A stretch of DNA of 64,000 bases from positions 2,085-66,084 of the IMG/VR virus record IMGVR_UViG_3300025769_000005; one strand, written 5' to 3'. A program made the translations under genes and the position numbers. Positions 4,831 through 57,751 of the stretch are shown piece after piece. Under the pieces are notes generated by a model that was not told where the DNA came from, ran no database searches, and saw only the letters and a list, made by a program, of their open reading frames with translations. Each line of letters begins with the position of its first letter. Within the stretch, counting starts at the first letter, position 1. Source of the DNA: a virus (lineage: Duplodnaviria > Caudoviricetes).

Positions 4831-6384
4831 ATGTCAGACAAACTTGTCAAGAATCTTAACTTCGGTAGCGATGCCAAAGATAAGATATTTAAAGGGATAG
4901 ATAAACTCACAAAAGCTGTTAGCTCCACATTAGGAGCTAGCGGCAAATGTGTTATCCTTGAAGATGAATCCGGTAAACCAATTATTACAAAAGATGGTGT
5001 TACCGTTGCTAATTCAATAGTATTATTCGATGCTGTTGAAAACATGGGAGCAACATTACTAAAAGAAGCTGCTAGAAAAACTGTAGAAGAAGCCGGTGAT
5101 GGTACAACTACAGCAACAGTATTAGCTCAGTCAATACTAACTAAAGCAAGCTCTAAAGATATTAATTCAAGAGAATTAAAATTAGGTATTAACGCAGCTG
5201 TTAAAAAAGTTGTAAAATATCTTGAAGATAATTCCATCGAAGTTACAGGCGATATGATCGACCAAGTAGCCACAATCTCCTCAAATAACGATACTGAATT
5301 AGGTAAACTAATCGGTGGAGCTTTCAAAAGTGTAGCAAACACGGGAGTTGTGATGATGGAAGAATCTAATGATATAACTTCATCTGTTGAAGTAGTTGAT
5401 GGTATGCAATATCATAAGCCAGTTAAAAGCATGCACTTTGTGACTGACCAAGCTAAGAAAACATGTGAATTAAATAATCCATTAGTTTTAATCGTTGAAT
5501 CACAAATTGATAGTATAAGAAAAATACAAGGTGTGTTAGAATATGCTATAAAAAATAATGAATCACTTTTGATTATTGCAGATGTTGATCCTCAAGTTTT
5601 AGCTGCATTAGCTATGAATAAGATGAAAGGCAATATTAAAGTGTGTATAGTAGATGGACCAACATATGGTTTTACTAAAAAAGAAAAACTAAACGATCTA
5701 GCTATGATGACTGGAGCAACAGTTATTAATGAAGATTTAGGAGATGATATGGATTTAATTGAAGTTCAACATTTAGGTAGAGCTAAAAAATCTATAAGTG
5801 GACAACAGGATACTATTATTCAAATAGAGGAAACTCCTGATGAAGCAAAAGATCTAGTTGAACAAGTTAAGAAAAGATTAGCTACAGAAAAAGTTCCTGG
5901 ATTTATAGTAGCGCTAGAAAGAAGATTAGCGCTGTTAGCAGCTAAAGTTGCTATAGTAAAAGTTGGTGCTAATTCTGAAATTGAATTAAAAGAAAAAAGT
6001 GATAGAGTCGAAGACGCTATCTGTGCTACAAAAGCCGCAATCAAAGAAGGTATTGTATCTGGTGGAGGAATTGCTCTGCTAAATGCATCTTCATCTATCA
6101 AAGCTGAGTCAGAAGCTGAACAAACACTTCTAGACGCTATTAAAGCTCCTTTTAAGACAATATTAGATAACGCTGGTATATTAGACTACAAAGCGCCTAA
6201 AGTTCAAGGAGAAGGATTAGATGTGGTTACGGGAAATATGGTAAATATGATTGATAATGGTATCATCGATCCATTGTTAGTTACAAAAAGCGCTCTTTTA
6301 AACGCGGCTTCAGTAGCAACTACTATTTTATCAACTGATTGTATAATTAACAATATAAGAATACATGAGGGCGATAGGAAATAA
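4831..6384 (+). CDS. groEL: Chaperonin GroEL (Cpn60)
   Basis: ITKDGVTVA, AGDGTTTATVLAQ, GGGIALL, GIIDP motifs; no GGM tail. Confidence 0.97.
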   Translation: MSDKLVKNLNFGSDAKDKIFKGIDKLTKAVSSTLGASGKCVILEDESGKPIITKDGVTVANSIVLFDAVENMGATLLKEAARKTVEEAGDGTTTATVLAQSILTKASSKDINSRELKLGINAAVKKVVKYLEDNSIEVTGDMIDQVATISSNNDTELGKLIGGAFKSVANTGVVMMEESNDITSSVEVVDGMQYHKPVKSMHFVTDQAKKTCELNNPLVLIVESQIDSIRKIQGVLEYAIKNNESLLIIADVDPQVLAALAMNKMKGNIKVCIVDGPTYGFTKKEKLNDLAMMTGATVINEDLGDDMDLIEVQHLGRAKKSISGQQDTIIQIEETPDEAKDLVEQVKKRLATEKVPGFIVALERRLALLAAKVAIVKVGANSEIELKEKSDRVEDAICATKAAIKEGIVSGGGIALLNASSSIKAESEAEQTLLDAIKAPFKTILDNAGILDYKAPKVQGEGLDVVTGNMVNMIDNGIIDPLLVTKSALLNAASVATTILSTDCIINNIRIHEGDRK

Positions 6385-25557: not shown

Positions 25558-26964
25558 ATGTCACTAACATTACAAGTAGGATTTTTTAACTCATATTACG
25601 TGAAGAGATTAGCAGATGTTCCTGACATACCTAATATTGGCGATCCTAGTTGGGACGCTCCTCAAGTTGCAGTACCTGCACAAGACTGGTACGTTGAAGA
25701 ATCTAGAATAAGAGGAGGTTATAATAATGTATCTACTGATTACGGTGTAAAAGCATATATAGTTGAAGAGCAAGCAGATCAAACACGTAGAGGATCATCT
25801 CTTATATACTCAGGTATATTCAACTCAAGAACAGGCATTAATCAAACTAATCAATTTAGTGTAGCAGAAGAAATAACTAGAAGTGTAGATCCAATAAGCG
25901 GTAGTATACAAAAGTTATTTGCAGAAGATACAAACTTACTAGTATTCCAAGAGCGTAAAGTTAACAATGCTCTTATAGATAAAGACGCTATATTTACAGC
26001 AGAAGGTTCTGCTATAACAACTTCAGGTAAATTAGTAATAGGACAAATAACACCTATATCAGGTGAATGGGGTATTGCTACAAACCCAGAATCATTTGCT
26101 GATTATGGATATGCTAAATACTTTGTTGACAGACATCGTGGAGCTGTTTTGAGATTAGCAGGTGGACAGATAACAGAAATATCAAACTATGGTATGATTG
26201 ATTTCTTTAGAGATCAGTTATCAGCGGTTACAAGCACAGGAGCAATATTAGGTTGTTTTGATAATTATAATAAAAACTATGTATTATCCATACAACCAAA
26301 CAATAGATATGACTACGGAGTATATAAAACTTTATCTTTTGACGAAAGATCAAAAGGCTGGACTAGTTTCTTTGATTTTAAACCTCAAGACATGTTTAGT
26401 TCTCAAGGTCAGTTTTATTCTACTAAGCTAAGATCAGGCGAAGATATTAACGAATTATACCAACATTACACTAACCAAACTAGAAATAGTTTTTACGGAA
26501 CTACTACACCATCATCAATACAATTTGTATTTAACCCAGCACCTAACAACATAAAAACTTTTCAAACTATAAACTACGAAGGTACTAATGGTTGGGAAGT
26601 TACAGCTTTAGTCTCTGATGAAACTGGGTTTGATGCTAGTGGCGGTAACTGGATTAACCATGTTGATACAATTGTTGAAGGTCCAGGCGCTACGCAGTAT
26701 AGAAAAATATATAGCTATGATGAAGGCGCTTATGTAGATAATAACGTCCAGTATCGAGCTGGATTTAATAGAAAACAAAATAAATACATGGCAGTTATAC
26801 CTAATAATACGCAAACACCTATTGCGGGTGAGGTTGTATTTGGTAACCAAACAACAGGTATAAAAGCTTATTATGCAACAGTCACAATGAAGACAGATGC
26901 AACTACTGATCCTAACGGATTAAAAGAGTTGTTTGCTGTAAGTAGTACTTTTGCACCAAGATAA
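25558..26964 (+). CDS. Tail (stabilisation/nozzle-like) protein, part 2
   Basis: EESRIRGGYN, GIATNPESFA, GWTSF beta-propeller-like motifs. Confidence 0.65.
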   Translation: MSLTLQVGFFNSYYVKRLADVPDIPNIGDPSWDAPQVAVPAQDWYVEESRIRGGYNNVSTDYGVKAYIVEEQADQTRRGSSLIYSGIFNSRTGINQTNQFSVAEEITRSVDPISGSIQKLFAEDTNLLVFQERKVNNALIDKDAIFTAEGSAITTSGKLVIGQITPISGEWGIATNPESFADYGYAKYFVDRHRGAVLRLAGGQITEISNYGMIDFFRDQLSAVTSTGAILGCFDNYNKNYVLSIQPNNRYDYGVYKTLSFDERSKGWTSFFDFKPQDMFSSQGQFYSTKLRSGEDINELYQHYTNQTRNSFYGTTTPSSIQFVFNPAPNNIKTFQTINYEGTNGWEVTALVSDETGFDASGGNWINHVDTIVEGPGATQYRKIYSYDEGAYVDNNVQYRAGFNRKQNKYMAVIPNNTQTPIAGEVVFGNQTTGIKAYYATVTMKTDATTDPNGLKELFAVSSTFAPR

Positions 26965-26983
26965 TTAATTAAAACAAATAGAT

Positions 26984-27850
26984 ATGCCAGCAATAGCAGC
27001 GATAGGAGCAGCAGTAAAAATAGGTGGAGCTATCTTTGGAGCAGGAAGAGCTAAACGAGAAGCTAGACGACAAAGAAAAAGAGCAAGAGCCTTAAACAAA
27101 AAAATAAATCATTTAGAAGCAAATAGACAAGATGTCATAAATCCTTATGATCAAGTAACAAGTTTAGCTAGTATGGCTACAGACTTGTCTAGCACCATGT
27201 CTAACCCTATGGCTAATTTATCTGTTGCAACAAAAGCTGCTGAAATGAAAATTGAACAAGCTGATATATCTTTAGCAAATACTTTAGATACATTAAGGGC
27301 TACAGGGTCTGGAGCTGGTGGAGCAACTGCTTTAGCACAAGCTGCTTTACAAAGTAAAAAAGGCGTTGCTGCTAGCATAGAAGGTCAAGAAAAAGCTAAC
27401 GAAGATAAAAGAGCAGCTGGTGAAGAAAGACTAGAACAAAGAGTTGCTGCAGAAAAACAAAGAATACAACGTATTAACATTAGCGAAGGCGCAAGAGAAC
27501 AACAAGCTATGGCGCAAGGTAGAGCATTTGAATTCCAAGCTCAAGAAAGTAGAGATAATACTAAACTAAGTAGATTGTACGGGCAACAACAACAAGCTCA
27601 AGGAGCTGCCGCTGCTGCTAGACAATCAGAAACTTCAGCAATTATGGGTGGTATAAATGCTTTAGGTGGCGCTATTGGTAGTGGTGCTTTTGGTGGTTTA
27701 GGTGGTGGAGGAAATAACCCTGTAGATAACATGTCTGAAAGCGCTGTATTAAATAGAATAACTCAAGATCCAGGTGGTGTTGGTGTTGAAGATATGAACG
27801 CTGAAGATTTAGGATTAGTATTAGATGAAAACGGTGATATGATTGATTAA
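26984..27850 (+). CDS. Internal virion/ejection protein
   Basis: Ala/Gly/Gln-rich helical protein with glycine-zipper termini. Confidence 0.6.
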   Translation: MPAIAAIGAAVKIGGAIFGAGRAKREARRQRKRARALNKKINHLEANRQDVINPYDQVTSLASMATDLSSTMSNPMANLSVATKAAEMKIEQADISLANTLDTLRATGSGAGGATALAQAALQSKKGVAASIEGQEKANEDKRAAGEERLEQRVAAEKQRIQRINISEGAREQQAMAQGRAFEFQAQESRDNTKLSRLYGQQQQAQGAAAAARQSETSAIMGGINALGGAIGSGAFGGLGGGGNNPVDNMSESAVLNRITQDPGGVGVEDMNAEDLGLVLDENGDMID

Positions 27851-52815: not shown

Positions 52816-53667
52816 CTACTCATAGTTTCTGATGCATTTGTAAAATGGATGTCTGTAACTACCAGCTTTAGTACGTTCGAAATATGTAAACGTTGCTGTT
52901 TGGCCTATGTAGTCATGAATGTTGTTTTGTATATCAGCTAGATCTTTGTAAGTAAAGCCTTTGCCTGGTGGACAACCGAACTTAACACCTTGATCGTCCA
53001 TCATAAAGAACTTACCTAGTGTACCTTCGCGCTTGCCTTTACCTGCTTCATAGCCTACAATTGTAGCTTCAGCATCGTGAAAGTCTTTGAACTTTTGTAA
53101 GTTGTAAGAACGTTTGCACTGATAAGGACCGTCAAGACGTAAGATAGAACCTTCGTAACCTTGAGGTAGAAAAGCATTGTGATGTAAGTCTAAAGCTTCT
53201 TCGTGCTTGTTAACTAGATACGATGGCACATAGCGTACAGAATCTGTATACATATCGCTTGTACATAATTGATCCATTCTGTAACTGTATGGCATATTCA
53301 TCACTGTTTCTACATAGTCATAGCAATGAAACTGTACTAGTTTTGCTGCTTCAGATCTGTCATCGTCTGTAGGTTTTTGTTTACGAACAAGAGATATAAT
53401 CTTTTCGAAGTCGTCACGTAGATCGTGGTTGTATAATTCACCATCGAGCACTACGTCAGGATGTATTTCGAAGAAATATTCTAGATCTTCTAGTATGTGC
53501 GCAATGTTGAGCCACGGTTTACCTGTACGAGAGTATGCATATACTTCGCCTTTGTCATTAAGTTGGATTAGACAACGTACGCCGTCAAGTTTTGGTTGCA
53601 TGTAGACTTTTTTAGTCCAGTCGACTGGTTTTGAGTCAACTTTGTATGCGAGCATTGGTTTTATCAT
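52816..53667 (-). CDS. lig: ATP-dependent DNA ligase
   Basis: QPKLDGVR, LDGELY, EGSILR, LQKFK motifs. Confidence 0.93.
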   Translation of the reverse strand: MIKPMLAYKVDSKPVDWTKKVYMQPKLDGVRCLIQLNDKGEVYAYSRTGKPWLNIAHILEDLEYFFEIHPDVVLDGELYNHDLRDDFEKIISLVRKQKPTDDDRSEAAKLVQFHCYDYVETVMNMPYSYRMDQLCTSDMYTDSVRYVPSYLVNKHEEALDLHHNAFLPQGYEGSILRLDGPYQCKRSYNLQKFKDFHDAEATIVGYEAGKGKREGTLGKFFMMDDQGVKFGCPPGKGFTYKDLADIQNNIHDYIGQTATFTYFERTKAGSYRHPFYKCIRNYE

Positions 53668-55209: not shown

Positions 55210-55293
55210 CTAGATGAGGAATCGAACCTCAATACTCGTCAGTAGTCGCATATAGAGCACCTCTTTTTAGAACTATATAAACCATACCTAGTT
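55207..55293 (-). ncRNA. tRNA-like RNA B (87 nt, no D-stem)
   Basis: AACUAGG/UCUAGUU acceptor stem plus A; T-arm UGAGG-UUCGAUU-CCUCA; UAUGGU linker; two internal hairpins. Confidence 0.6.
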
Positions 55294-55433
55294 AGTCAGC
55301 TAGTTAGTGTGACTATTGTCTCCTATTTCTAGCATGTGCTAGCAATTCAGTTATGTGATTAGGTACCATTTATCGTGGTATCTTTGCGGCATTCGCCCAC
55401 CTAACCCTAATTAACCTACTCGTCTAGCAATGT

Positions 55434-55462
55434 GCTCACCTTTGCTTTCGCCGCGGTTGAGC
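55434..55462 (-). repeat. Hairpin module CAACCGCGGCGAAAGCAAAGGUG, copy closed by GCU/AGC
   Basis: 55437-55459 identical to 55840-55862. Confidence 0.85.
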
Positions 55463-55796: not shown

Positions 55797-55809
55797 ATTT
55801 ATTATTTAG

Positions 55810-55882
55810 TGGACGTGGCAGGATTCGAACCTGCGTTGACACCTTTGCTTTCGCCGCGGTTGTCGCTTACCATTTCACGCCC
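55810..55882 (-). ncRNA. tRNA-like RNA A (73 nt), resembling the tRNA-like domain of tmRNA
   Basis: GGGCGUG/CACGUCC acceptor with G3:U70 and A73; AAAUGGUAAGCGAC 5' loop; T-arm GCAGG-UUCGAAU-CCUGC. Confidence 0.7.
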
Positions 55883-55885
55883 ATT

Positions 55886-55964
55886 TACCACCTGTCACTA
55901 CGACTGGCTTTGTACAACTGATACCTTAAGGAAGCCAAGGCGTCGGTTTACTGTTAGGGTGGTA
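55886..55964 (-). ncRNA. Long interrupted hairpin in the leader of RNA A
   Basis: Nested stems UACCACC/GGUGGUA, CGAC/GUCG, UGGCUU/AAGCCA. Confidence 0.45.
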
Positions 55965-56153
55965 TTATTTTCTACGCCATGCTTTGTGTACTGCTGCAGA
56001 TAGTTCTTGTGATACTATTTGTAGCTCGAGCACTTGTTTGTTACCGATAATTGGTATATAACTATAAAGCTCGGTTGTGCTACAATTGACACAGGTTCTA
56101 TAACCTAAGGCTAATCGACCTTGAGGAATTACATTTGTACATTTACATTTCAT
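55965..56153 (-). CDS. TraR/DksA-type C4 zinc-finger protein
   Basis: CKC...IPQGRLALGYRTCVNC. Confidence 0.6.
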   Translation of the reverse strand: MKCKCTNVIPQGRLALGYRTCVNCSTTELYSYIPIIGNKQVLELQIVSQELSAAVHKAWRRK

Positions 56154-57710: not shown

Positions 57711-57751
57711 TTGACATAGTGAGAATCGAACTCACATTAACCATTATGTCA
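57711..57751 (-). ncRNA. tRNA-like RNA C (41-nt minihelix with GG loop)
   Basis: UGACAUA-AUGGUUAAU-GUGAG-UUCGAUU-CUCAC-UAUGUCA-A; all 12 pairs Watson-Crick. Confidence 0.65.

What the first reader, a model, noticed from the sequence alone, without database searches (positions are those of the whole stretch)
55810..55882. RNA A looks like a tmRNA tRNA-like domain with no mRNA domain
Seen: GGGCGUG-AAAUGGUAAGCGAC...AAC-GCAGG-UUCGAAU-CCUGC-CACGUCC-A with G3:U70 and A73. Established: G3:U70 and A73 are AlaRS identity elements, and tmRNA begins with an acceptor strand followed by a stem-less loop of the form ..UGG..UCGAC. Here the tag ORF and pseudoknots are replaced by a short hairpin. Inference: an alanylatable SmpB ligand that inhibits or hijacks trans-translation.
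Basis: partly seen in the sequence, partly recalled or inferred. Interest (0 to 1): 0.8.

Follow-up and report, generated by a model that had tools for sequence, protein, structure and literature searches.

The report
Phage tag-less mini-tmRNA gene
This marine Flavobacteriaceae-type phage carries a real, conserved 73-base gene that copies only the alanine-accepting, tRNA-like end of the bacterial ribosome-rescue RNA (tmRNA); one such RNA is already known from mycobacteriophage DS6A, so this is a further member of a known kind, with an unusually swappable middle piece.

Summary
On the minus strand, 55882 to 55810 fold as a 7-bp acceptor stem with G3:U70 and A73, a stemless D-loop analogue, a 27-nt GNRA hairpin and a canonical T arm. 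It is the only significant Rfam match in the window: tmRNA, 32.4 bits, below the gathering score of 47, with both model ends matched and 326 central positions replaced by 27 nt.

It is not a decayed tRNA, an att fragment or a permuted half. In 48 phage loci retrieved only through the neighbouring DNA ligase, 42 carry such an RNA at the same place, and 38 of 43 copies keep G3:U70 and A73.

The kind is in print. Mycobacteriophage DS6A has a "TLD only" tmRNA, and a similar molecule is reported to inhibit tmRNA, perhaps by titrating SmpB. My model of the family finds the DS6A RNA. This scan has reported phage mini-tmRNAs on other DNA before.

I found two things in no paper. The RNA is conserved across a whole lineage. 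Its central insert behaves like a cassette: 58 insert types among 100 unique RNAs. The same structured modules also stand free beside RNA A in this window.

Alanylation, SmpB binding and any effect on trans-translation remain untested.

The parts
55810..55882 (-). RNA A: the 73-nt tag-less mini-tmRNA (tRNA-like domain only), from G1 at 55882 to discriminator A73 at 55810
   Evidence: Sequence; Rfam tmRNA 32.4 bits, E 2.7e-9 window-wide; own family model R1 72.6 bits; fold
55876..55882 (-). 5' acceptor strand GGGCGUG (nt 1-7), with G3 at 55880
   Evidence: Pairs 7 of 7 with 55811-55817. G3:U70 is kept in 38 of 43 ligase-anchored relatives
55865..55875 (-). Stemless D-loop analogue AAAUGGUAAGC (nt 8-18), with the GG doublet
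   Evidence: Aligned to model positions 8-19 of RF00023; unpaired in the MFE fold; G12 nearly invariant in alignment A1
55838..55864 (-). 27-nt insert hairpin (nt 19-45) standing where helix P2, the tag frame and the pseudoknots of a full tmRNA would be. It holds the 22-nt module M (55840-55861) with a GC-GAAA-GC cap
   Evidence: Module M was found exactly in 7 viral stretches, 5 of them as a TLD insert
55818..55834 (-). T arm GCAGG-UUCGAAU-CCUGC (nt 49-65)
   Evidence: The three T-stem pairs left free by the search patterns covary: 43 cells changed on both sides and 1 unpaired cell
55810..55817 (-). 3' acceptor strand CACGUCC (nt 66-72, U70 at 55813) and discriminator A73 (55810)
55807..55809 (-). 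Trailer CUA. CCA is not encoded, so maturation would need 3' trimming and the host CCA-adding enzyme (inference)
   Evidence: The same CUA trailer follows most relatives
55887..55963 (-). Module X: a conserved structured RNA lying between the stop of the 62-aa ORF and G1 of RNA A. In the close relative L005 the same module is the insert of the TLD itself
   Evidence: RNAalifold on 23 unique copies shows covariation in the outer stem and in the CGAC/GUCG stem
55437..55458 (-). Second exact copy of module M, on a different closing stem (GCUC/GAGC), directly after the stop of the 56-aa ORF
   Evidence: 2 matches in the window, 0 expected. L005 has the same context

Best explanation
RNA A is a functional gene for a tag-less mini-tmRNA. 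It is a homologue of the tRNA-like domain (TLD) of tmRNA in which helix P2, the tag reading frame and all pseudoknots are replaced by a short hairpin.

Shown here: it has the TLD architecture. It is an orthologous, syntenic early-region gene in a large lineage of phages related to Flavobacteriaceae phages. Its acceptor, D-loop analogue and T arm are conserved while the insert is not.

Inferred: it is cut out of the early polycistronic transcript by RNase P at the 5' end and by a 3' endonuclease, then receives CCA from the host enzyme. Host AlaRS charges it with alanine through G3:U70 and A73, and it binds host SmpB; the phage encodes no SmpB. Because it offers no resume codon, it cannot complete trans-translation. 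Most likely it competes with host tmRNA for SmpB, and perhaps for EF-Tu and stalled ribosomes. That would damp SsrA tagging and the linked mRNA decay during infection.

The variable insert takes the place of P2. It may be only a cap, or it may carry a second function (see the novel case).
For: - **Architecture and chance.**
- **Family.** Exact scans of IMG/VR with the 3' half gave 15 stretches, with the insert module 7, and with the 5' 14-mer 21 TLDs among 115 matches. All gave RNAs with the same ends and different middles.
- **Sample not selected on the RNA.** There were 54 loci found through the ligase protein, 48 of them with at least 2 kb upstream. The model R1 hits 43 RNAs in 41 loci, and one 161-nt form was found by pattern, giving 42 of 48. 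All lie 1.4-3 kb upstream of the ligase on the same strand.
- **Identity elements.** 38 of 43 copies have G3:U70 and A73, while pair 4:69 is C:G, A:U or G:C.
- **Folds of the 38 unique RNAs.** The acceptor is 7 of 7 in 36, the T arm is intact in 37, and a helix next to the T stem closes the insert in 32.
- **Covariation.** The T-stem pairs covary: 99.7% of cells are paired, the score is 0.404 against 0.070 in shuffles, and 0 of 500 shuffles reach it.
- **Divergence of neighbours.** The ligases are only 56-79% identical in protein.
- **Link to the described kind.** R1 finds the published DS6A TLD-only RNA at JN698994 28478-28557, at 39.3 bits and E 2.7e-7.
- **Homology to host tmRNA.** One subtype in the same lineage has a D-loop analogue very like that of Bacteroidetes tmRNAs.
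[quoted passage not shown] 2009, which I could not read). PMC11915505 says the same (passages read). Peptidyl transfer to a TLD-only truncated tmRNA is discussed in PMC3895274 (passage read).
- **Phage genome.** It has no SmpB and no tyrosine integrase.
Against: - No experiment or raw-read RNA evidence bears on this RNA. The RNA-library data are contigs that cover the whole 5.5-kb region alike and show no ends.
- The score is below Rfam's gathering threshold, and ARAGORN is blank.
- Five of 43 relatives have A3:U70, which should abolish alanine identity. Four of them are the only copy in their locus, so charging is not universally required.
- The inserts are far from neutral-looking. Exact modules recur on different TLD cores and outside TLDs. 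A pure SmpB-decoy model does not predict this.
- Two other tRNA-like elements without Ala identity lie nearby, which suits a processing or scaffold role.
- None of 5 cultured relatives has a clear mini form, and Cellulophaga phage phi38:1 has a full-size tmRNA call instead.
- Why a lytic phage should gain from blocking ribosome rescue is not explained.
Confidence: 0.6

Rival explanations
1. tRNA-like chassis for RNA modules. The conserved TLD ends serve mainly as a processing and stability scaffold (RNase P, 3' trimming, CCA, nuclease resistance). They would also separate the cistrons of the early transcript. The working part would be the swappable insert (modules M, X, Y, Z and others), for example a protein- or RNA-binding decoy. 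Any engagement with AlaRS or SmpB would be secondary.
For: - Among 100 unique mini-TLDs in all fetched loci, the inserts fall into 58 similarity clusters, 39 of them singletons. There are only three major cores, and 6 insert clusters sit on more than one core type.
- Module M is exact over 22 nt on four different closing stems, and sits inside and outside TLDs.
- Modules X, Y and Z stand free in this window but are TLD inserts in other phages.
- X has its own covarying stems and lies before, after or inside TLDs and before tRNA genes.
- The window and its close relative L005 differ by exactly such a swap.
- RNA-library contigs show variants lacking X or Y at precise module borders.
- Five of 43 copies lost G3:U70.
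- RNA B and a 41-nt acceptor/T-arm minihelix without Ala identity occur in the same region.
Against: - A scaffold needs neither G3:U70 and A73 (kept in 38 of 43) nor a tmRNA-type D-loop analogue.
- Many inserts are plain hairpins.
- No partner for any module is known, and no module matches an Rfam family.
- This rival does not exclude the main explanation.
Confidence: 0.22
2. One part of a split tmRNA.
For: - Two-piece tmRNAs are common in marine phages (PMC9004378, passages read).
- Longer relatives of 143-185 nt exist, and ARAGORN calls one a tmRNA with a short, atypical tag.
- Module X directly upstream holds an open frame that ends just before the TLD (read).
Against: - The gene order is 5' acceptor strand, then insert, then T arm, then 3' acceptor strand, so it is not permuted.
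- No match to RF01849-51, RF04321 or any second piece of RF00023 anywhere in the window.
- No frame with a usual ssrA-type C-terminus, apart from one antisense chance hit in a structural gene (a narrow test).
- X has covarying stems, is absent in some strains and lies in varied positions. That suits a structured RNA better than a tag template.
Confidence: 0.05
3. Alanyl donor for something other than ribosome rescue. The charged RNA, which has no anticodon and so stays out of normal decoding, would supply alanine to a non-ribosomal transferase, for example in cell-envelope or protein modification.
For: The alanine identity elements are conserved and there is no anticodon arm. This is only an analogy, from my own knowledge, with dedicated non-decoding tRNAs in cell-wall synthesis.
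Against: No Fem-type, MprF-type or L/F-transferase gene was looked for or seen. The ten neighbouring ORFs tested match no Pfam family above cut-off apart from a pyrimidine-dimer glycosylase, and match no PHROG. The tmRNA-type D-loop analogue points to SmpB.
Confidence: 0.05
4. Non-functional remnant: a decayed tRNA-Ala gene, or a copy of the host ssrA 3' end left by integration (an attP-type fragment).
For: tmRNA genes are frequent integration sites. 55 of 121 matches to the degenerate 3' pattern in viral contigs have no 5' partner and may be such fragments.
Against: - Both halves are present and pair perfectly.
- 42 of 48 ligase-anchored relatives keep the RNA, although their ligases are only 56-79% identical.
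- The genome has direct terminal repeats and no integrase.
- The 3' half occurs in only 12 stretches of 185,579 species genomes. Five are tRNA genes or fragments and seven are mini-TLDs on MAG contigs. None is a bacterial tmRNA.
Confidence: 0.03

Closest known systems
TLD-only (CDS-less) tmRNA of Mycobacterium phage DS6A (tmRNA Website tmID 11587; Hudson, Lau and Williams 2014, PMC4131195; Mao et al. 2009 as cited there; PMC11915505)
   Same: Phage-encoded. It has a complete tRNA-like domain with G3:U70 and A73, a stemless D-loop analogue, a canonical T arm and a short hairpin in place of the tag frame and pseudoknots. It is 80 nt against 73 nt here. My model, built without DS6A, finds it at JN698994 28478-28557 at 39.3 bits. 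It is unannotated in its record, like this one.
   Different: The host phylum differs (Actinomycetota against Flavobacteriaceae-type), as does G+C content (0.70 against 0.58). DS6A is temperate, with an annotated integrase, whereas this genome has none. The insert here is a module that also occurs elsewhere in the same genome and is exchanged among relatives. Nothing of that sort is described for DS6A in the passages I read.
One-piece tmRNA (SsrA), Rfam RF00023, including the Bacteroidetes forms and the full-size call in Cellulophaga phage phi38:1
   Same: The acceptor stem with G3:U70, A73, the D-loop analogue ending in GAC, the AC linker before the T stem and the T loop all align to the model ends. 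They resemble two Bacteroidetes tmRNAs fetched here.
   Different: There is no resume codon, tag frame, pseudoknot or long P2 (27 nt instead of 326 model positions). The score is below gathering (32.4 against 47). It cannot complete trans-translation on its own. phi38:1 has a 360-nt ARAGORN tmRNA call at NC_021796 26805-27164 on the minus strand.
CDS-less organellar tmRNAs (jakobid mitochondria, Rfam RF02544; two Mallomonadaceae plastid genes of about 65 bp; PMC11915505, passages read)
   Same: Reduction of tmRNA to the tRNA-like domain without a tag frame, with a similar length.
   Different: Those are resident genes of reduced organelle genomes that co-occur with an imported SmpB. This one is a phage gene that must act on the host's SmpB. 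RF02544 did not outrank RF00023 here (clan competition keeps only the best match).
tRNA-Ala and alanine minihelices
   Same: 7-bp acceptor stem with G3:U70, A73 and a T arm. From general knowledge, these suffice for AlaRS recognition.
   Different: There is no D stem and no anticodon arm. ARAGORN calls no tRNA. True tRNA-Ala genes caught by the same 3' pattern have ordinary cloverleaves.
Permuted two-piece tmRNAs of Alphaproteobacteria, cyanobacteria and marine phages (RF01849-51, RF04321; PMC9004378)
   Same: Phage-borne tmRNA relatives in marine viromes, with a tRNA-like domain separable from the coding part.
   Different: The gene order here is not permuted. There is no coding piece and no match to those models.

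Membership tests
tmRNA (SsrA, RF00023) | 7-bp acceptor stem with a G3:U70 wobble pair and A73 discriminator (AlaRS identity) | tested here: met
   GGGCGUG pairs with CACGUCC, followed by A. Kept in 38 of 43 relatives not selected on the RNA
tmRNA (SsrA, RF00023) | T arm with a 5-bp stem and a 7-nt T loop | tested here: met
   GCAGG-UUCGAAU-CCUGC; the stem covaries
tmRNA (SsrA, RF00023) | D-loop analogue without a D stem, with a GG doublet, running into a helix that starts at GAC; no anticodon arm | tested here: met
   Aligned to model positions 8-19; unpaired in the MFE fold; the hairpin loop is GAAA, not a 7-nt anticodon loop; ARAGORN finds no tRNA
tmRNA (SsrA, RF00023) | mRNA-like domain with a resume codon and tag reading frame | tested here: not met
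   Only 27 nt lie between the two TLD halves. No other tmRNA part is in the window and no usual tag ending
tmRNA (SsrA, RF00023) | Pseudoknots PK1-PK4 and long helix P2 | tested here: not met
   326 model positions are replaced by a 27-nt hairpin
tmRNA (SsrA, RF00023) | Score at or above Rfam's gathering threshold (47 bits) | tested here: not met
   32.4 bits
tmRNA (SsrA, RF00023) | Alanylation by AlaRS; binding of SmpB and EF-Tu; entry into stalled ribosomes | not testable with these tools
   No RNA-protein tool is available. The phage has no SmpB of its own
TLD-only / CDS-less tmRNA (DS6A type) | Complete TLD with the coding and pseudoknot body reduced to a short hairpin; total length about 60-110 nt | tested here: met
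   73 nt here against 80 nt in DS6A. The same model R1 scores 72.6 bits here and 39.3 bits on DS6A
TLD-only / CDS-less tmRNA (DS6A type) | Encoded by a phage as a free-standing gene, not an att fragment | tested here: met
   Complete virus record with terminal repeats; no integrase; both halves present; syntenic in 42 of 48 relatives; no bacterial tmRNA shares the 3' half
TLD-only / CDS-less tmRNA (DS6A type) | Inhibits host tmRNA when expressed (reported for a similar molecule; Mao et al. 2009 as cited in PMC4131195) | not testable with these tools
   An experiment is needed. The primary paper is not held
Canonical tRNA (RF00005) | Cloverleaf with D arm and anticodon arm | tested here: not met
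   ARAGORN finds 0 genes. tmRNA is the best match within the tRNA clan
Permuted two-piece tmRNA (RF01849-51, RF04321) | 3' acceptor/T-arm piece encoded upstream of the 5' acceptor strand and coding piece | tested here: not met
   Standard order; no match to these models

The most novel reading that the evidence does not exclude
The tRNA-like domain is a conserved chassis, and the insert is a cassette. A lineage of marine Flavobacteriaceae-type phages would use a tmRNA-derived, alanine-type tRNA-like frame to process, stabilise and perhaps deliver a fast-changing set of small structured RNA modules to SmpB, AlaRS or the ribosome. The modules (M, X, Y, Z and dozens more) also work as free-standing hairpins between early genes and are shuffled by recombination within the invariant TLD halves. 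That would be a natural counterpart of the laboratory tRNA-scaffold trick, with the modules acting as decoys for host factors or defence proteins.
Probability: 0.22. Interest if true: 0.75.

Novelty: new member of a known kind. Interest (0 to 1): 0.42.

Why it matters
A phage RNA that copies only the alanine-accepting end of tmRNA is a ready-made natural probe of trans-translation. It should take up AlaRS, SmpB and perhaps EF-Tu, yet it cannot resume translation.

The one described example (DS6A) could be read as an oddity. Here the RNA is a conserved early gene, present in 42 of 48 ligase-anchored relatives. In one sample of IMG/VR hits the mini forms were about as frequent as full tmRNAs: 21 mini against 24 ARAGORN tmRNA calls among 121 matches. 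This suggests that interference with ribosome rescue, or some other use of this frame, is a common phage strategy that standard annotation misses, since both ARAGORN and Rfam at default settings are blank.

The cassette-like inserts raise a further testable question: is the frame merely capped, or does it carry cargo?

Tried and rejected
- **Decayed second TLD half.** I first read window 55960-55990 as a decayed 5' half of a second TLD. Comparison with L005 showed it is simply the 3' end of the 62-aa ORF, so I dropped the idea.
- **Core identity across pattern-found loci.** The TLD core is 32-41 of 41 positions identical across 27 loci found by pattern. This is inflated by how they were found, so I replaced it with the ligase-anchored sample.
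- **Pair 4:69.** Its covariation in alignment A1 arises by construction, because my script required perfect acceptor pairing. Only the T-stem pairs count.
- **Cultured phages.** blastn of an 801-nt stretch against cultured phages found nothing. With 79 nt it gave only T-arm-length pieces in 595 records, none covering 80%.
- **Cultured relatives.** R1 on 5 cultured relatives gave no clear mini-TLD. The best hit, in Tenacibaculum phage Gundel_1 at 28.2 bits, has G3:C70.
- **RNA libraries.** Four RNA-library runs were laid, but they are contigs. They cover all 30 bins in two runs and show no ends, strand or level. Contigs that stop near 55808 are best explained by assembly breaks at a sequence shared by many strains. 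They are not evidence of expression or processing.
- **Neighbouring ORFs.** Pfam and PHROG scans of the ten neighbouring ORFs gave nothing useful.
- **Promoters and terminators.** The scan gave no minus-strand terminator and only weak promoter-like sites.
- **Search for a tag frame.** It used only a narrow list of usual C-termini.
- **Papers.** Searches for a phage TLD-only or mini tmRNA found only the DS6A mentions in PMC4131195 and PMC11915505. Mao et al. 2009 is not held. The supplements of PMC9004378 and PMC11915505, which list phage tmRNAs, are closed and may hold more tag-less forms.
- **Not done.** I did not compare with tmRNAs of named Flavobacteriaceae hosts. The two Bacteroidetes tmRNAs used come from MAGs.

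Full report
**What is there**

The window is 64 kb of a 66,084-bp virus record with direct terminal repeats. It is AT-rich. It encodes a terminase, portal, GroEL-like chaperonin, ribonucleotide reductase and primase-helicase.

Its terminase is 64% identical to an uncultured podovirus. It is 44% identical to the Flavobacterium 'elemo' phages, 36-39% to Cellulophaga phages and 29% to a Tenacibaculum phage. The host is therefore most likely a member of the Flavobacteriaceae (inference).

The finding lies on the minus strand among small early-region ORFs that all run the same way. Read from 55882 down to 55810, the RNA is:
- GGGCGUG, the 5' acceptor strand;
- an 11-nt unpaired stretch with a GG doublet;
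- a 27-nt hairpin capped by GC-GAAA-GC;
- a 3-nt linker;
- GCAGG-UUCGAAU-CCUGC, the T arm;
- CACGUCC, the 3' acceptor strand;
- A, the discriminator.

The pair at 3:70 is G:U, and the trailer is CUA rather than CCA. The unconstrained fold gives just this structure: -28.0 kcal/mol, z -2.95, and 1 of 200 shuffles folds as well.

**Is it more than chance?**

ARAGORN finds nothing in the window. Rfam finds nothing at gathering thresholds. With E-value reporting, the tmRNA model RF00023 aligns end to end at 32.4 bits (gathering score 47). Its 326 central positions are replaced by 27 nt. Over the whole window this is E = 2.7e-9 and the only significant match.

**Relatives**

Exact scans of IMG/VR returned many contigs in which the same two ends enclose quite different middles of 20 to about 140 nt:
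- the 3' half: 15 stretches;
- the insert module: 7 stretches;
- the 5' 14-mer: 115 matches examined, of which 21 are TLDs and 94 are chance hits in coding DNA.

The five TLDs found through the insert alone all have G3:U70 and A73, with pair 4:69 either C:G or A:U. One of them, L006, has an imperfect T stem.

They comprise 24 ARAGORN tmRNAs of 244-446 nt, 16 ARAGORN tRNAs, 21 uncalled mini forms of 70-101 nt, 5 longer uncalled forms and 55 with no 5' partner. That pattern fixes U70 and A73, so it says nothing about their conservation.

**A sample not chosen on the RNA**

I retrieved 54 loci through the DNA ligase protein that lies about 2 kb downstream. The ligases are mostly 56-79% identical, and three are about 35%. 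Forty-eight loci have at least 2 kb upstream.

A covariance model (R1) built from 32 mini forms hits 43 RNAs in 41 of these loci. All are on the ligase strand, 1.4-3 kb upstream. A 161-nt form in a 42nd locus was found by pattern.

Of the 43 RNAs, 38 have G3:U70 and A73, and 5 have A3:U70. Among the 38 unique sequences, the free fold shows:
- the full acceptor stem in 36;
- the T arm in 37;
- a helix that closes the insert next to the T stem in 32.

In the first alignment, the three T-stem pairs left free by my patterns covary: 99.7% of cells are paired, and 0 of 500 shuffles reach the score.

A homologue of the 62-aa ORF lies upstream on the same strand in 40 of 75 loci that hold a mini form.

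This is an orthologous gene under selection. It is not a decayed tRNA.

**Not an att fragment and not a half**

The genome has no tyrosine integrase.

The 3' half occurs in only 12 stretches of 185,579 species genomes. Five are tRNA genes or fragments and seven are mini forms on MAG contigs. None is a bacterial tmRNA.

The order of the parts is not permuted. No other piece of any tmRNA model is in the window. A narrow search for usual tag endings gave one antisense chance hit.

**What is known**

Hudson, Lau and Williams (PMC4131195, passages read) list "Mycobacterium phage DS6A (TLD only)". [quoted passage not shown] 2009. That paper is not held.

PMC11915505 (passages read) repeats this. It adds CDS-less forms in jakobid mitochondria and two plastids.

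My model, which was built without DS6A, finds that RNA at JN698994 28478-28557. It is 80 nt, scores 39.3 bits at E 2.7e-7, has G3:U70 and A73, and lies in an unannotated gap.

PMC9004378 (passages read) counts tmRNA genes in 402 of 18,146 phage genomes. It does not mention tag-less forms. PMC3895274 (passage read) refers to peptidyl transfer to a TLD-only truncated tmRNA in vitro.

Seven literature searches found no other phage example. Closed supplements may hold some.

Earlier notes of this scan report the same kind on other DNA, with the same DS6A precedent. I had reached DS6A from the papers before that look-up.

**How it most likely works**

Shown:
- the TLD architecture;
- the alanine identity elements and their conservation;
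- the absence of any tag template;
- the absence of a phage SmpB.

Inferred:
- excision from the early transcript, because the RNA sits 13 nt before the next ATG and directly after module X;
- CCA addition;
- charging by AlaRS;
- binding of host SmpB;
- competition with host tmRNA.

One subtype in the same lineage has a D-loop analogue almost like that of two Bacteroidetes tmRNAs fetched for comparison. This supports descent from, and mimicry of, host tmRNA.

I put 0.6 on this reading. That the RNA is a tag-less tmRNA homologue is much more certain than what it does.

**What does not fit a plain decoy**

The inserts are extremely diverse. Among 100 unique mini forms there are 58 insert clusters, 39 of them singletons, on three main cores. 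Six clusters sit on more than one core.

Yet some inserts are conserved to the base:
- **Module M** is exact over 22 nt in seven viral stretches and twice in this window, on different closing stems.
- **Module X** (55887-55963) stands free just upstream of RNA A. In L005, L022 and L215 it is the TLD insert.
- **Module Y** (55359-55403) matches the insert of 107-nt forms.
- **Module Z** (55302-55330) matches the insert of L010.

Reading the output by eye, X occurs in 28 viral stretches:
- inside a TLD (4 loci);
- just 5' of one (3 loci and this window);
- just 3' of one (5 loci);
- just 5' of a cloverleaf tRNA gene (at least 10 loci).

Its stems covary.

The close relative L005 has neighbouring ORFs that are mostly 75-99% identical, with a few small ones at 60-68%. 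It has the layout ORF62, then a TLD with insert X, then ORF59. The window has ORF62, X, a TLD with insert M, then ORF59.

Contigs from RNA libraries include variants that skip exactly X (55882 to 55965) or exactly Y (55333 to 55430).

These facts support a second reading, in which the TLD is a frame for swappable RNA modules. I give it 0.22 as a rival.

**Limits**

No raw reads were available. The laid RNA-library runs are contigs that cover the whole region and cannot show expression, strand or ends. No RNA-protein prediction tool exists here. The five A3:U70 relatives show that charging is not kept everywhere.

**Verdict**

This is a real gene and a further member of a kind already described (DS6A). 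The lineage-wide conservation and the cassette-like inserts are the parts worth following up.

Noticed in passing
window 55887-55963 (-): Module X is a ~77-nt structured RNA with covarying stems and no Rfam match. It occurs in 28 viral stretches beside or inside TLDs and in front of tRNA genes. An internal 8-nt palindrome changes while staying a palindrome (CCUUAAGG, CCUUGAGG, CAAGCUUG).
   Followed up: partly
window 55437-55458, 55359-55403, 55302-55330 (-): The ORF-free tract between the 56-aa ORF and RNA B is a chain of modules: a second copy of M, then Y, then Z. Each of these is the central insert of a mini-tmRNA in other phages, and each has a closing stem that differs by context.
   Followed up: partly
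window 55211-55289 (-): RNA B is a second tRNA-like element, with acceptor AACUAGG/UCUAGUU, a canonical T arm, a GG-bearing loop and a long insert, but C3:G70, so no alanine identity. It scores only 16.7 bits with the mini-tmRNA model. Similar elements occur in relatives (L318, L343, L344).
   Followed up: partly
window 57711-57751 (-); L346 2933-2979: A 41-nt acceptor-stem plus T-arm minihelix sits between small ORFs. A 47-nt counterpart stands in a related phage. Together with RNA A and RNA B, this gives three classes of tRNA-like elements in a genome where ARAGORN calls no tRNA in the 64 kb examined.
   Followed up: partly
NC_021796.1 (Cellulophaga phage phi38:1) about 26805-27164, minus strand; locus L263 1492-1851: ARAGORN calls a full-size 360-nt tmRNA with an atypical tag. 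The RefSeq record annotates none here, only small hypothetical CDSs.
   Followed up: partly
JN698994.1 28478-28557 (+); locus L255: The published DS6A TLD-only tmRNA lies in an unannotated gap between gp33 and gp34 of the GenBank record. DS6A also encodes an RtcB-like RNA ligase (gp76).
   Followed up: no
L324 2703-2782, L323 2498-2562, L306 3298-3382, L310 3309-3370, L340 3533-3594: Five relatives have A3:U70 instead of G3:U70. One of them stands in tandem with a G3:U70 copy. Three are 62-85 nt and lack the GG of the D-loop analogue. They may be uncharged derivatives.
   Followed up: no
window 55333-55430 and 55882-55965, in contigs of RNA-library runs X15 and X16: Strain variants lack exactly 96 nt (module Y) or exactly 82 nt (module X, with one other letter in its place). 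The second joint falls precisely at G1 of RNA A and at the stop of the 62-aa ORF.
   Followed up: no
window 4831-6384 (+): A phage-encoded GroEL-like chaperonin of 517 aa (PHROG 5725, E 2.8e-129).
   Followed up: no
L361 (G001:C16) 53388-53478 and 53545-53650: Two different mini-tmRNAs stand in tandem on a 56-kb contig binned into a Bacteroidetes MAG. That MAG also has a normal 400-nt tmRNA on another contig. One 'Aliivibrio' MAG holds four different mini forms on short contigs, which are probably phage DNA binned by mistake.
   Followed up: no
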